From the NCBI RefSeq assembly GCF_009914755.1, contig NC_060939.1: 64,000 nt of DNA. One strand, written 5' to 3'. Shown here piece after piece: positions 1-60,992 of this stretch. The position numbers and the translations under genes are program-made. The notes under the pieces are model-generated. The model had not been told where the DNA came from. It searched no databases and was given only the letters and a program-made list of their open reading frames with translations. The DNA is from the human T2T-CHM13v2.0 reference genome, Homo sapiens. The number at the start of each line of letters is the position of its first letter. The first letter of the stretch is position 1.

Positions 1-3094
<3,094 letters not shown>

Positions 3095-3254
3095 ATGAGC
3101 ATCTGTCCTGTGACAACATTGAGAAGAAGGCAAAGATCATTCTGAAGCTTGGGGAAAGTGAACACGTAACACTGTGAATAAACAGGTGGACACTGCTTTC
3201 CATCCCATGCTTATCAAACTCTATAAGATTAAAACTTATAAAAAGACTCAGATC

Positions 3255-3617
<363 letters not shown>

Positions 3618-3854
3618 TTAAATTCCTAATAGGAAAAAAATTTTTCATCAAAAGCACCAGGCTTCCTACTCATTCCACTAGGTTAACATGTAGATACATT
3701 AACAGAAATGAGAAAAGAGGGGATAGGTCATGATTGGGCTAAAAGATGGATTCTACTGTGCCTCAGGTTCTCTCTGTATTTTATTAAAGAAATACAGGAA
3801 TGGACTAGACTTTTAAGTAGCAAAAAGCTAAGACCCTAATGAAAATAGTTAGGA

Positions 3855-10423: not shown

Positions 10424-10662
10424 GACTGTCATGAAGTCAGGCTCAGAGCTGGTGAAGGCTGGGTTACGAGCATTCTTTGAAAATGCTGCAGAAGATTTGG
10501 AGAAGACTTCAGAAAACCTGAAACTTGGGAAGTTCACCCATTCCCGAACGCAGATTAAAGGCGTTTCTCAGAATATTAACTACACTACAGTGGCTCTGCT
10601 CCCCATCCTGACGTCCATCTTTGAGCACGTCACTCAGCATCAGTTTGGAATGGATCTACTCT
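10424..10662 (+). CDS. RYR3: RYR3 exon, 239 nt: (R)[13 protein letters not shown]...QHQFGMDLL(L)
   Basis: tgtttgcttgcag acceptor; T|gtgagt donor; lies within ORF 10410-10793. Confidence 0.97.
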
Positions 10663-32760: not shown

Positions 32761-32930
32761 TGTGAAAATGAGTACAATTTCCCATAGATAGGTAAGGAAA
32801 GAAAAGATTTTTTATATATATATTTTTATATATATATATTTTTATATATGTTTATATATATAAAAATATATATATATATAAAATCTTTTCTTTCCTTACC
32901 TATCTATGGGAAATTGTACTCATTTTCACA
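32761..32930. repeat. Perfect 50-bp inverted repeat around a 70-bp AT spacer
   Basis: 32761-32810 is the exact reverse complement of 32881-32930. Confidence 0.98.
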
Positions 32931-46071: not shown

Positions 46072-46086
46072 GCCATGCAAGTAAAG
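46072..46086 (+). CDS. RYR3: RYR3 15-nt cassette micro-exon AMQVK (counterpart of the RYR1 ASI 5-aa exon)
   Basis: TACTGAC branch-like motif, pyrimidine tract of about 35 nt, acag|GCCATGCAAGTAAAG|gtacag. Symmetric phase 0; fills the gap between KSKMSK and SGGQDQERK. Confidence 0.9.
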
Positions 46087-51982: not shown

Positions 51983-52095
51983 GTGGAACAGCCTTTGAGG
52001 TCCAAGAAGGCCGTCTGGCACAAACTGTTATCAAAGCAACGGAAACGGGCAGTGGTGGCCTGTTTCAGGATGGCCCCTCTCTACAACCTGCCCAG
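51983..52095 (+). CDS. RYR3: RYR3 exon, 113 nt, calmodulin-binding segment: [37 protein letters not shown](R); ends at a GC donor
   Basis: atctcttctcag acceptor; CAG|gcaagt non-canonical donor, required for phase 2. Confidence 0.95.
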
Positions 52096-53132
52096 GCAAG
52101 TATTTTGTCTTTTTTCCTGGCATGTAAGCCAGCGATGGGAATGGAGGTATCCTCCCACAGCTGTGCTCTCTCACTCTTAATCCAAGGAATAGAAATTGGA
52201 ATCCTTGGCCTATGGAGCTATTGCAGTCTGCATAGTATAAGGGCCTGGCTAAGACAATCAAGGTAAGCATAAAAACTGAAACCAGATGAGATTCTCTAGA
52301 GCCCATTCCTGTCAGGCTCACCATTTGTACCCTAAAGTCAGCCAAGTAAGCATATGGAAGTACACTACTTTTGCTGAGGTGGGATTCTTGGTTAGCATGT
52401 AAAGACTTCTGGAAAAAGAGAAACTGTTTTCTGAAACATTTTACCCCAAATTCCATCAACAGTTCCAATAGTATTTCTCTGCTCAGGAACTTGACACTGA
52501 AATTACCATTTCCTCAGCAGGTACAGAAATGTAACTTGAAAATCTTTTAGCACAGTGTACTAGCTGTCAAAATATAGAAAGGCTGCAGATGCCTCAAGAG
52601 GCTTGCCAGAGGCACGATGCCTTCGGGTGTTTCAGCTTATACTTTGAAGTAAAATGTATTTGAAGCTTTTGCTGAAAAGTCTGGGACATATCCTTGTCAA
52701 CATAGGGAATAGTATCAGTGACAGACTGGCCCAGAGTTGACCACCCAGACCGATTCAGTGTCTTTGGTGATGTGGTGACATTCCTGTCCTCAGACTTATT
52801 GCAGAGTAGGTATGGTCAGGTCTTGGGTCAATAAACAAAGCTGGTAATTGAATATCAGCCTCTGCTTCACTGACTTATCAAATCAGTAGGAATATTCTCA
52901 CTTGCTCAGGGAAATTAAACTGACTTAGACAAGTATACTCTGAAGCTTATGTAAATAAATGTGTTTCTTTGGAATATCACATAAAGGACTATTCCTATGC
53001 TTGACATTTTGTTTTCATCAAATTGTGGATCTTGGCCATCATTTGTCCAGAGTAGCCTATAACCTCGTCCTGAGCCAACTGGCCACCTGGGCTTTCTTAG
53101 GGTCTTTGAAGATAGTTAAGAATGATGGTCTC

Positions 53133-53703
<571 letters not shown>

Positions 53704-54350
53704 TCATGAATGAAAAGATGAAAAGCTCAAGCAGTCATGGGCGTTAAGGCTGCTGAAGTCGTAACAGAAAAGTGAAATTCATAGCCCGTTAGAAAAAGCA
53801 AAAGTGCATAGAATTTGTCTTTGTTTTCTGGAAGTGTCGAAACATCAGAAAGTGTTTCCTTCCCTATCTGATTGAGATTTCTACCTGACATTGTGCTGAG
53901 TTGGCCTTCGAAAGAGCCTAGCTCGAAAGCACATGTCTCTGGGACCAGGACAGCTAGGCAGAAATTACATCTCTCAAAAACAAGCATTTTTTTCTAAATC
54001 CACTGAAGATATTAGTACCATCCTTACATATCTGGGCTGCACCTTCAGTAGTTTTACTCTGTATGGGTAAGAGTAAGTCTAGGAATTCACTATGTCCTTC
54101 ATGAAGCATGACCGTCCCTAACTCAGTTGTTTTAGAGGGGCTGCTATGGGTGATCTCTCTAGCATGGAGGACTGTAAGTAGATTTCATAACAACAGAGAA
54201 GCTGATGATGGAGACAACTTCTCTTCTCCACCTTGTGATCATCTAACCGCATAGAATCTCCCAAACTAAAGGGCTAAAGGGATTTGTTTTATTATGGGAA
54301 ACTGTCTCTGATGCTAGTTTTTAAAAGAAAACTTGTATGCTTCTCTCCAG

Positions 54351-54450
54351 ACACAAAATTAATAATTTCTTCCTGAGCACCTTTCAACAAGTTTGGCTGG
54401 AAAAGGTTAATGAAAAAACTCAGTATGACAGGCTTATACCCATTTTAATG
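54351..54450 (+). CDS. RYR3: Alternative (mutually exclusive) RYR3 exon 'A', 100 nt: (R)HKINNFFLSTFQQVWLEKVNEKTQYDRLIPILM
   Basis: ttctctccag acceptor; ATG|gtaatg donor; open in phase 2 to 0; peptide aligns with the 55379-55475 exon. Confidence 0.85.
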
Positions 54451-54536
54451 GTAATGTAACCTGTGGAGAGACCTGCTCATTCTCTGCACACTCCTCCTTT
54501 ATTGACCATGATTTAACGTTACCATAAGAACACGAA

Positions 54537-55286
54537 TTTGTACAATTTTTAGGAAGAATTCTGATTGGTCAGACTTGAAGAAAGATGGCAAGGGCTGTGT
54601 CCTACCGAAAACCATGACCGGAGTTTAATGGCTCTGGTGTTGACTTTTATCTTCCTCCCCTCTCCTTCCCTCCTCACCACTGTCCTCACATTTTGTAAAC
54701 ACTTGGCTGCTTTTGCTTTGCAGTGGCTAATATTCCCAGAAGTCAATCCTGGCTTATCGGGAGTGGCTCATGCCAGTTATTCAGTGCACCCACATACCAG
54801 GGACATAGCTAGAATCCATGCGGCACACAGAAAATATGCCAACGACGTAACGTGCTTAAACCTTGTCGTGCTAAGTAAAAGCTGGAGCACTTTACCACTG
54901 TGGTTACTTGGAGAATGAAAAGAAGCCACATTTTGGTATTTTGGTATCTCTAAGATGAAACCACTGATCATCGGTATGACTTAGATTGGATTACCTAGAA
55001 GGGTGATCAGCCTAAAGGAATACCTAAATTGCCATATGAAGCAAATACTTCAGGACTGTTACTTGGCCTAATGATTGATTTCTCATTGGAGAGGAAATGT
55101 GATAAAGAGCCTATGAGAACAGAGTAGGATTACAGATAACTGCCATGTCTTGCTAACCATTGTCATTTTCAGAAGGTGCTCTAATATTCAAGACTCGTCA
55201 TGGTAGAGGGTTCTGGTTTCTTTGAAGTGAGTTCTGTGGTATGCTACTGGCTACCCTGACCAATCAGAAGACAAGAATTGTACAAA
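54537..55286 (+). promoter_or_regulatory. Putative long-range pre-mRNA stem between the mutually exclusive exons
   Basis: 54559-54572 complements 55256-55269 (14/14); 54537-54547 complements 55276-55286 (11/11); nested 54611-54626 with 55191-55204. Confidence 0.65.
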
Positions 55287-55378
55287 AGTCTGTCCTGCTT
55301 ACTAACCATTAACTGCCCAAACTAAAAGAACAAGTTCCATGGATCCCTCTTGACCTCCCTCTCACCCCTTCCGCTCAG

Positions 55379-55475
55379 GCACCGCTCTATTAACCTCTTC
55401 CTCCATGGCTATCAGAGATTTTGGATAGAAACAGAGGAGTATTCCTTTGAAGAGAAACTAGTACAGGATTTGGCT
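55379..55475 (+). CDS. RYR3: RYR3 exon 'B', 97 nt (canonical type): (R)HRSINLFLHGYQRFWIETEEYSFEEKLVQDLA
   Basis: cccttccgctcag acceptor; GCT|gtaagt donor; phase 2 to 0. Confidence 0.96.
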
Positions 55476-57094: not shown

Positions 57095-57201
57095 AAATCT
57101 CCAAAGGTGGAAGAGGAGGAGGAGGAAGAGACAGAAAAACAACCTGACCCACTACATCAGATCATTCTCTATTTTAGCCGCAACGCTCTCACGGAGAGGA
57201 G
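57095..57201 (+). CDS. RYR3: RYR3 exon, 107 nt: [35 protein letters not shown](S)
   Basis: ggtttgtgtag acceptor; AG|gtcaga donor. Confidence 0.95.
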
Positions 57202-60892: not shown

Positions 60893-60992
60893 GAGAAAGA
60901 GATGGAGAAGCAAAAAACCCTCTATCAGCAAGCTCGGCTGCATGAGCGTGGTGCTGCGGAGATGGTCCTTCAGATGATAAGCGCTAGCAAAG
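60893..60992 (+). CDS. RYR3: RYR3 exon, 100 nt: [33 protein letters not shown](G)
   Basis: ttttccccccag acceptor; G|gtgatt donor. Confidence 0.97.

What the first reader, a model, noticed from the sequence alone, without database searches (positions are those of the whole stretch)
54351..55475. Hidden duplicated exon: a mutually exclusive exon pair immediately after the calmodulin-binding site
Seen: 54351-54450 has a good acceptor (ttctctccag) and donor (ATG|gtaatg). It is stop-free in the same phases (2 to 0) as exon 55379-55475. The peptides align with one gap: HKINNFFLSTFQQVWLEKVNEKTQYDRLIPILM vs HRSINLFLHGYQRFWIET-EEYSFEEKLVQDLA (H, N, FL, Q, W, E, E, L, L identical). Including both exons or neither shifts the frame, so only one can be used. 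Exon A removes most of the acidic residues and adds a proline. Established: the preceding exon encodes the RyR calmodulin-binding helix. Inference: the switch could tune CaM/Ca2+ regulation. I recall mutually exclusive splicing being reported for RyR3 cDNAs, so the exon itself may be known. It is absent from the ORF track.
Basis: partly seen in the sequence, partly recalled or inferred. Interest (0 to 1): 0.8.

Follow-up and report, generated by a model that had tools for sequence, protein, structure and literature searches.

The report
Known RYR3 mutually exclusive exon pair
Human RYR3 carries two old duplicate exons, only one of which is used per transcript, that encode alternative versions of the segment right after the calmodulin-binding helix; the pair is real but already annotated and catalogued, and its functional effect is untested.

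Summary
Exon A (54351-54450) and exon B (55379-55475) have usable splice sites, share one open frame and phase, and encode homologous peptides (0 of 20000 shuffles reach the score). Using both or neither shifts the frame.

It is not hidden. The hub table lists 54351-54450 as an exon of other RefSeq transcripts. A 2021 catalogue of tandem-duplicated exon substitutions lists it as RYR3 event 180 with the exact exon A peptide. That table dates it to jawed vertebrates, marks it as present in the Hatje 2017 RNA-seq atlas, and records no proteomics support.

New here: the only solved RyR3 structure (mink, 9c1e/9c1f) carries the exon A form (32 of 33 residues identical to human), and that paper never mentions splicing. 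Exon B is the form shared with RyR1, RyR2 and invertebrate RyRs. Exon A keeps the conserved hydrophobic positions but moves net charge from -3 to +1.

Tuning of calmodulin or Ca2+ regulation remains plausible but untested.

In passing, the intron between the two exons holds a strong long-range inverted repeat (about 28 bp, -36.7 kcal/mol). It may be an RNA bridge or old transposon ends.

Novelty: already known. Interest: low.

The parts
51983..52095 (+). Constitutive upstream exon encoding the calmodulin-binding helix. It ends in phase (codon AG|N) and is followed by a GC donor (CAG|gcaagt).
   Evidence: Searches give the sequence and translation. In one search the exon matches mink RyR3 3457-3493, RyR2 about 3577-3612, RyR1 3610-3645 and the 30-residue RyR1 peptide chain 2bcx_B. 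The GC donor follows from the annotated exon end plus the reading ..NLPR|H.. seen in P0002, P0152 and 9c1e.
54351..54450 (+). Exon A: the alternative 100-nt exon (33 codons plus 1 base), the divergent duplicate. Net charge +1, one proline.
   Evidence: It is 32 of 33 residues identical to mink RyR3 3495-3527 in 9c1e/9c1f. It is 31 of 33 identical in the Weddell seal RyR3-like fragment P0002, which is spliced prev-A-next, and in the unnamed ORF fragment P0130; it is identical in the unnamed fragment P0001. The hub table lists it as an exon of other RefSeq transcripts. The supplement of PMC8373072 lists it with its peptide.
55379..55475 (+). Exon B: the 97-nt exon of the selected RefSeq transcript (32 codons plus 1 base), the ancestral-type copy. 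Net charge -3.
   Evidence: It matches RyR2 (E 5e-9) and RyR1 (E 1.6e-4) chains but no RyR3 chain in the PDB. It is identical in the wolverine RyR3 fragment P0152. All 33 non-A sequences among the representatives, invertebrates included, are of this type.
57095..57201 (+). Constitutive downstream exon. It starts in phase 0 with an acidic run.
   Evidence: P0002 reads exon A directly into it.
54530..54573 (+). 5' arm of a long-range inverted repeat in the A-B intron, 86 nt after exon A's donor. A possible RNA bridge; its role is not shown.
55255..55293 (+). 3' arm of the same inverted repeat. The core pairing ends 92 nt before exon B's acceptor.

Best explanation
Exons 54351-54450 (A) and 55379-55475 (B) are an ancient tandem duplicate spliced in a mutually exclusive way in RYR3.

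Each supplies one version of a stretch of about 33 residues. It begins one arginine after the calmodulin-binding helix and lies at the start of the central solenoid (mink RyR3 3495-3527).

Shown:
- The two exons are homologous.
- They have the same phase and nearly the same length.
- Both or neither breaks the frame.
- Exon A is kept almost unchanged in human, mink and seal.
- Exon A is part of a recombinant RyR3 that assembles and opens.

Inferred:
- Transcripts with both or neither exon are removed by nonsense-mediated decay, so the frame enforces exclusivity. The 928-nt intron rules out steric hindrance, and both donors are U2-type.
- Exon A keeps the conserved core positions (H, N, F-L, aromatic, W, L/I-E, L-I-x-x-L) but swaps surface charge by +4 per subunit. 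The fold is therefore probably kept and a surface changed. The likeliest consequence is altered coupling between the calmodulin-binding helix (or its ligands) and the central solenoid, not a different channel architecture.

The size and direction of any functional effect are unknown.
For: Sequence and frame.

Homology beyond chance: 0 of 20000 shuffles; reciprocal best hits in the window; score 42 against a next best of -11 among 58 open candidates.

Conservation and use of exon A:
- 9c1e/9c1f RyR3 3495-3527 is 32 of 33 identical.
- PMC11452665 passages say the structure is mink RyR3 expressed in HEK293 cells, purified, and open with Ca2+/ATP/caffeine.
- The seal fragment P0002 is spliced prev-A-next.

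Exon B as the ancestral type:
- It matches RyR2 and RyR1 chains.
- 33 of 36 representative-library sequences that cover the region are B-type, invertebrates included.
- 0 of 118 RyR1 sequences have an A-like segment.

Position in the structure: the local-refinement masks in PMC11452665 put residues 3487-4015 with Jsol/Csol and 2170-3462 with Bsol.

Conserved core positions: alignment A1.

Catalogues:
- The PMC8373072 supplement row for RYR3 event 180 reads internal, last common ancestor Gnathostomata, present in Hatje, with the exon A peptide and a 100-nt span.
- The Hatje 2017 supplements give RYR3 cluster 1006 two exons with differential inclusion across Human Protein Atlas tissues (P 1.5e-7 and 2.7e-5). 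One exon peaks in brain, the other in testis.
- RYR3 is listed in PMC9741552.
Against: - There is no protein-level support. The proteomics cell for the RYR3 event is empty in PMC8373072, and RYR3 is absent from table S2 of PMC9741552.
- I could count no junction reads here, so exclusivity in transcripts rests on annotation and on the cited atlases. I saw only supplement rows of those atlases. The Hatje coordinate files are .xls and unreadable here.
- An unnamed library protein, P0005, has both exons skipped and a frameshifted tail. Non-productive forms therefore exist at least as models.
- The AlphaFold2 model of the A-form fragment is poor over the exon (pLDDT about 46-56), so the helix-loop-helix reading is weak.
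- No experiment comparing the A and B forms turned up in searches.
- I did not check the age 'Gnathostomata' myself. My own A-type sequences are all mammalian or unnamed.
Confidence: 0.9

Rival explanations
1. The pair is real, but the two forms are functionally equivalent. The switch is a neutral relic of duplication, or it mainly serves dosage control through non-productive double inclusion or double skipping, not through two different channels.
For: No functional comparison was found. There is no proteomic support. Core positions are kept in both exons. A both-skipped, frameshifted model exists (P0005). The intronic duplex would bring A's donor and B's acceptor together, which favours joining A to B.
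Against: Exon A is 31-32 of 33 identical in human, seal and mink, and exon B is identical in human and wolverine. Both copies are therefore under strong constraint, which is hard to square with redundancy. The catalogue's stated age is at least jawed vertebrates. Inclusion differs across tissues. Net charge differs by 4.
Confidence: 0.25
2. Exon A is a chance open frame or a cryptic exon included only as splicing noise.
For: It is absent from the selected RefSeq transcript. Its polypyrimidine tract is shorter than exon B's (printout). There are no peptides in the proteomics tables.
Against: Its homology to exon B is far beyond chance. It is near-identical in mink and seal. It is the form present in the cloned mink cDNA that gives a working channel and a 2.9 A structure. 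It is in curated catalogues.
Confidence: 0.02
3. The inverted repeat in the A-B intron is only the decayed ends of an old DNA transposon and plays no part in the exon choice.
For: Two arms bracket about 680 nt, as in a terminal-inverted-repeat element. The whole-intron folding z-score is only -0.58. I could not test conservation.
Against: 27 of 28 core positions pair, which is high for neutral ends of an ancient element. I saw no target-site duplication at the flanks. There is no other copy of the intron sequence in the window. The only other perfect 14-nt inverted pair within 1 kb with a complex 14-mer starts at 32761, beside the AT-rich block; the rest are AT-rich or simple sequence, an Alu-like pair and an A-run.
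Confidence: 0.5

Closest known systems
RYR3 tandem duplicated exon substitution, event 180 of Martinez-Gomez et al. 2021 (PMC8373072 supplement); also RYR3 cluster 1006 of Hatje et al. 2017 (PMC5740500 supplements)
   Same: It is the same object. The supplement row gives the exon A peptide letter for letter, a 100-nt span on chr15, and transcripts ENST00000634891 versus ENST00000634418. It also gives type internal, last common ancestor Gnathostomata, and 'in Hatje' = 1.
   Different: Nothing differs in the object. The catalogues do not say that the solved mink RyR3 structure is the A form, and they do not mention the intronic inverted repeat.
Internal mutually exclusive homologous exon pairs of other ion-channel genes (SCN1A-9A, CACNA1x rows in the same table)
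   Same: They are tandem duplicates with the same phase. They swap a short homologous segment while keeping core residues, and they date to early vertebrates (PMC9741552 abstract and passages).
   Different: In those families the 'Gene duplication' cell is marked 1, whereas it is empty for RYR3. I infer the cell's meaning, that paralogues share the event, from the rows. In line with this, I saw no A-like segment in 118 RyR1 sequences or in any RyR1 or RyR2 chain of the PDB.
Mutually exclusive exons of insect RyR and nematode unc-68
   Same: The gene family is the same, and the substitution of tandem duplicated exons is of the same kind (PMC9741552 passage).
   Different: Table S5 of that paper files RYR3/RyR under 'different region, convergent'. 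These are independent events at other places in the protein.
RyR3 AS-8a dominant-negative splice variant
   Same: It is another alternative splicing event in RYR3.
   Different: It is a 29-residue deletion around a putative transmembrane helix, not a substitution (passage in PMC13215552). It lies elsewhere in the gene.
Long-range intronic RNA pairings that steer mutually exclusive splicing (docking/selector type)
   Same: A strong intronic duplex lies next to a mutually exclusive exon pair. Hatje et al. mention such structures and a docking/selector case in CD55 (passage).
   Different: Here both arms lie inside the single intron between the two exons. The only candidate competing partner is weak (-28.2 kcal/mol). 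Neither conservation nor effect was tested.

Membership tests
Tandem-duplicated mutually exclusive exon pair | Two neighbouring exons between the same constitutive exons | tested here: met
   A and B lie 928 nt apart, between 51983-52095 and 57095-57201 (hub table).
Tandem-duplicated mutually exclusive exon pair | Encoded peptides are homologous | tested here: met
   10 identical of 33 columns; 0 of 20000 shuffles reach the score. Reciprocal best hits in the window. Score 42 against -11 for the best of the other open candidates.
Tandem-duplicated mutually exclusive exon pair | Same phase and similar length | tested here: met
   100 and 97 nt. Both start with one base of a split Arg codon and end on a codon boundary.
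Tandem-duplicated mutually exclusive exon pair | Only one of the two appears in productive transcripts | tested here: inconclusive
   Both or neither shifts the frame. P0002 has A alone and P0152 has B alone. RefSeq and Ensembl place them in different transcripts (hub table). No read counts could be made here.
Tandem-duplicated mutually exclusive exon pair | Both copies conserved in other species | tested here: met
   A is 31-32 of 33 identical in seal and mink. B is identical in wolverine. The deeper age (Gnathostomata) comes only from the supplement of PMC8373072.
Exclusivity by steric hindrance (donor too close to branch point) | Intron between the two exons shorter than about 60 nt | tested here: not met
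   The intron is 928 nt.
Exclusivity by U2/U12 splice-site incompatibility | One of the introns has U12-type splice sites | tested here: not met
   The donors are gtaatg and gtaagt, and the acceptors have polypyrimidine tracts and AG. The U12 consensus used for comparison is recalled.
Exclusivity by reading frame plus nonsense-mediated decay | Joint inclusion and joint skipping give premature stops | tested here: met
   One search shows stops in both cases. Decay of such transcripts is inferred from general knowledge.
Ryanodine receptor calmodulin-binding region (the RyR1 3614-3643 equivalent; numbering recalled) | The preceding exon matches the peptide used in solved RyR peptide entries | tested here: met
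   Residues 6-35 match 2bcx_B (30 residues, E 7e-15), 6y4o_B and 6xxf. That these entries hold calmodulin is recalled.

The most novel reading that the evidence does not exclude
Two linked readings remain open.

(1) The A and B forms differ in how calmodulin (or S100A1) and the central solenoid talk to each other. If so, RyR3 data from the mink clone (A form) and from the human reference (B form) would not be interchangeable. The RyR3 cryo-EM paper builds a human homology model on the A-form structure and never mentions splicing (0 occurrences of 'splice').

(2) The 28-bp long-range duplex in the intron between the two exons is a selected RNA bridge that takes part in the A/B choice or in non-productive A+B joining.
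Probability: 0.2. Interest if true: 0.5.

Novelty: already known. Interest (0 to 1): 0.15.

Why it matters
The exon pair itself adds nothing new, because it is annotated and catalogued. The practical point is smaller. The only experimental RyR3 structure, and the stable cell line behind it, carry the alternative exon A. The human reference protein carries exon B, with four charges' difference per subunit right after the calmodulin-binding helix. People who map variants onto RyR3, or compare its calmodulin regulation across clones, should know which form they hold. If the two forms differ, this would be a tissue-regulated handle on RyR3 gating.

Tried and rejected
- Non-mammalian RyR3 sequences: I could not reach them. 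The search for homologous proteins with exon A words (targets of 75-2000 residues) gave only P0001 and P0002. The P0002 exon region searched against longer proteins (476-2000 residues) gave only the B-type wolverine fragment. A full-length-range search from a RyR1-type query found 1900 proteins but listed the best 120, all RyR1. No full-length RyR3 was seen, so I could not check the event's age myself.
- Structure: the AlphaFold2 model of the seal A-form fragment has mean pLDDT 62 and about 46-56 over the exon. It suggests helix 160-177, a loop and helix 185-192, but this is weak. The search of that model against solved structures could not include ryanodine receptor chains, because chains over 3000 residues are not aligned. 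Its best rows (Z 5.2 or less) are generic helical matches. I therefore could not learn whether exon A is ordered in 9c1e.
- Splicing-factor motifs: a scan around both exons for Rbfox, PTB, NOVA, MBNL and CELF words and branch-point words showed nothing notable.
- Duplex background: duplex energies of 200-nt intron ends across all 21 introns, and 300 shuffles, did not discriminate. The A-B intron ranked 10th of 21, and 17 of 300 shuffles did as well. I replaced this with exact inverted-repeat counts and arm-versus-window energies.
- Other literature: the supplement of Abascal et al. 2015 (PMC4465641) has no RYR3 entry. Searches gave no paper describing this exon pair's function; I read passages of PMC7139363, PMC7555182, PMC13215552 and PMC6114036 and found them irrelevant to it. 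One search was badly specified (min_terms 1) and useless.
- window.fa carries no soft-masking, so I could not read repeat status for the intron.

Full report
**What is in the sequence**

Exon A (54351-54450, 100 nt) has the acceptor ttctctccag| and the donor ATG|gtaatg. Exon B (55379-55475, 97 nt) has a longer pyrimidine tract, ending ccgctcag|, and the donor GCT|gtaagt.

Each exon is open in one frame only, and it is the same one. The first base completes the arginine codon that exon 51983-52095 leaves as AG, and the exon ends on a codon boundary. Splicing prev-A-next or prev-B-next reads through into the acidic start of exon 57095-57201. Using both exons, or neither, shifts the frame and runs into stops.

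The upstream exon is followed by gcaagt, so its annotated donor is a GC donor. The reading ..NLPR|H.. in P0002, P0152 and the mink structure sequence agrees with that boundary.

**More than chance**

The two peptides align with one gap and 10 identical columns. None of 20000 shuffles reaches the global score of 42 (z 6.8), and 2 of 20000 reach the local score.

I enumerated every AG..GT pair of the right length class in the two flanking introns. There were 423 pairs, and 58 were open in frame and clear of exon B. Exon A scores 42 against exon B. A sub-fragment of exon A scores 3, and the best unrelated candidate scores -11.

A tblastn of each peptide against the whole window gives the other exon as best non-self hit (E 0.03) and no third copy. 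There is no similarity left at the DNA level. The duplication is old.

**Which copy is which**

The exon B peptide matches 38 distinct PDB sequences. All are RyR2 (E about 5e-9) or RyR1 (E about 2e-4), and none is RyR3.

The exon A peptide matches a single PDB sequence: RyR3 of entries 9c1e and 9c1f, residues 3495-3527, with 32 of 33 identical. The paper behind those entries (PMC11452665; I read passages and sections 11 and others) states that the protein is mink RyR3. It was stably expressed in HEK293 cells and solved at 2.89 and 3.22 A, and it is open with Ca2+, ATP and caffeine.

The word 'splice' does not occur in that paper's main text. The authors started from an AlphaFold model of human RyR3 and built a human homology model on the mink structure. 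So the only experimental RyR3 structure is the exon A form, while the human reference protein is the exon B form.

I searched the representatives library with the seal fragment P0002. There were 395 hits at E <= 0.001, and 150 were listed. Of the 151 proteins then stored (those 150 plus P0002), 36 covered this region at my score cut-off. Three are A-type: P0001, P0002 and P0130. The other 33 are B-type, including invertebrate receptors.

All 118 RyR1 sequences returned are B-type, many of them several isoforms of one species. Exon B is thus the ancestral type, and exon A is a divergent copy that I saw only in RyR3.

**Conservation**

- Exon A is identical in the unnamed fragment P0001.
- It is 31 of 33 identical in the Weddell seal RyR3-like fragment P0002, where it is spliced to both neighbours.
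- It is 31 of 33 identical in the unnamed raw ORF P0130, and 32 of 33 in mink.
- Exon B is identical in the wolverine fragment P0152.

Neutral intron sequence would not stay that similar between primates and carnivores (general knowledge). Both copies are therefore under constraint.

**What the segment is**

The upstream exon's translation matches mink RyR3 3457-3493, RyR1 3610-3645 and the 30-residue RyR1 peptide chain of 2bcx, plus RyR2 peptide chains. That these are calmodulin complexes, and that the RyR1 site is numbered 3614-3643, I recall and did not test.

In the mink cryo-EM work the Bsol mask ends at 3462 and the Jsol/Csol mask resumes at 3487. Exon A (3495-3527) therefore falls at the start of the central solenoid region, just past the calmodulin-binding helix. 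The table of domain borders is in a PDF that I could not read.

Alignment A1 shows that exon A keeps the positions conserved in all ryanodine receptors: H, N, F-L, an aromatic, W, L/I-E and the closing L-I-x-x-L. Its LIPIL lines up with LVQDL in exon B and with LIPDL in some invertebrate receptors. The proline is therefore not unprecedented at that place.

What changes is charge. K+R goes from 3 to 4, D+E from 6 to 3, and net charge from -3 to +1.

The AlphaFold2 model of the seal fragment predicts a helix, a loop and a short helix over the exon, but with low confidence.

**How it most likely works**

Exclusivity is enforced by the reading frame. Decay of the frameshifted products is inferred. 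The 928-nt intron excludes steric hindrance, and both donors look U2-type.

The choice swaps a charged surface on an otherwise conserved helical segment that links the calmodulin-binding helix to the central solenoid. I think the most likely effect is on modulation (calmodulin, S100A1, interdomain coupling), not on assembly, since the A form assembles and gates. I give this roughly one chance in three. I found no experiment on it.

**Already known**

- The hub table lists 54351-54450 among exons of other RefSeq transcripts.
- The supplement of Martinez-Gomez et al. 2021 (PMC8373072; I saw the header, the first rows, the RYR3 row and the RYR3 sequence rows) lists RYR3 event 180. It gives ENST00000634891 versus ENST00000634418, type internal, an empty proteomics cell, gene family age Bilateria and an empty 'Gene duplication' cell. 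It also gives last common ancestor Gnathostomata, 'in Hatje et al.' = 1, the exon A peptide and a 100-nt span on chr15.
- Hatje et al. 2017 (PMC5740500; supplement rows and main-text passages) have RYR3 cluster 1006 with two exons. Both are differentially included across Human Protein Atlas tissues (P 1.5e-7 and 2.7e-5). One has its maximum in brain (Gini 0.53), the other in testis (Gini 0.25). Which identifier is exon A I could not establish, because the coordinate files are .xls.
- PMC9741552 names RYR3 among families with such events in vertebrates, flies and worms. It files the fly event as a different region, convergent. RYR3 is not in its proteomics table.

**Seen in passing**

The intron between the two exons holds a nested inverted repeat. 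Positions 54537-54550 pair with 55273-55286 (13 of 14), and 54559-54572 pair with 55256-55269 (14 of 14).

- The arms give a duplex of -36.7 kcal/mol. The 5' arm against 530 other 60-nt windows of the region gives -14.5 +/- 3.9.
- The stem appears in both the minimum-energy and the centroid fold of the whole intron, although the intron as a whole does not fold better than shuffles (z -0.58).
- The window holds 46 perfect 14-nt inverted pairs within 1 kb. 41 lie in AT-rich or simple sequence, two in an Alu-like pair and one in an A-run. The remaining two have complex 14-mers: this one, and one starting at 32761 beside the AT-rich block.
- Twenty block shuffles gave 0-2 such pairs per window.
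- The core stem starts 86 nt after A's donor and ends 92 nt before B's acceptor.

It could be a selected RNA bridge or the ends of an old transposon. I could test neither conservation nor repeat identity with the collections at hand.

**Verdict**

The structural interpretation is right but the object is already known. The functional idea is open.

Noticed in passing
window 54530-54573 and 55255-55293: A nested long-range inverted repeat (14 of 14 plus 13 of 14 bp, duplex -36.7 kcal/mol) lies in the intron between the two alternative exons, placed almost symmetrically 86 and 92 nt from the splice sites. It could be an RNA bridge or old transposon ends. Conservation was not testable here.
   Followed up: partly
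window 52096-52101: The intron after the calmodulin-binding exon starts gcaagt: a GC donor at the branch point of the A/B choice. Protein evidence supports the boundary.
   Followed up: partly
PDB 9c1e/9c1f, residues 3495-3527; PMC11452665: The only solved RyR3 structure (mink) carries the exon A form. The paper does not mention splicing and builds a human homology model on this structure.
   Followed up: yes
protein P0005 (unnamed library record): A 192-residue library protein joins the upstream exon directly to the downstream exon. Its frameshifted tail is the same as the one the window gives when both exons are skipped.
   Followed up: no
proteins P0021, P0034, P0048, P0098, P0132 (unnamed invertebrate-type RyR fragments): These fragments end the equivalent segment with LIPDL, close to exon A's LIPIL. 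Exon A scores slightly higher against some of them (up to 60) than against vertebrate B-type segments (30-51). The segment is too short to say whether this is ancestry or convergence.
   Followed up: no
window 53850-53919: This is the second-best pairing partner of the 5' arm of the intronic repeat (-28.2 kcal/mol), and it lies upstream of exon A. Such a pairing would loop out exon A. It is weak and may be chance.
   Followed up: no
window 46072-46086, 10424-10448, 60893-60921: The hub table shows a 15-nt coding micro-exon in the selected transcript, and two shorter exon versions in other transcripts. I did not examine them.
   Followed up: no
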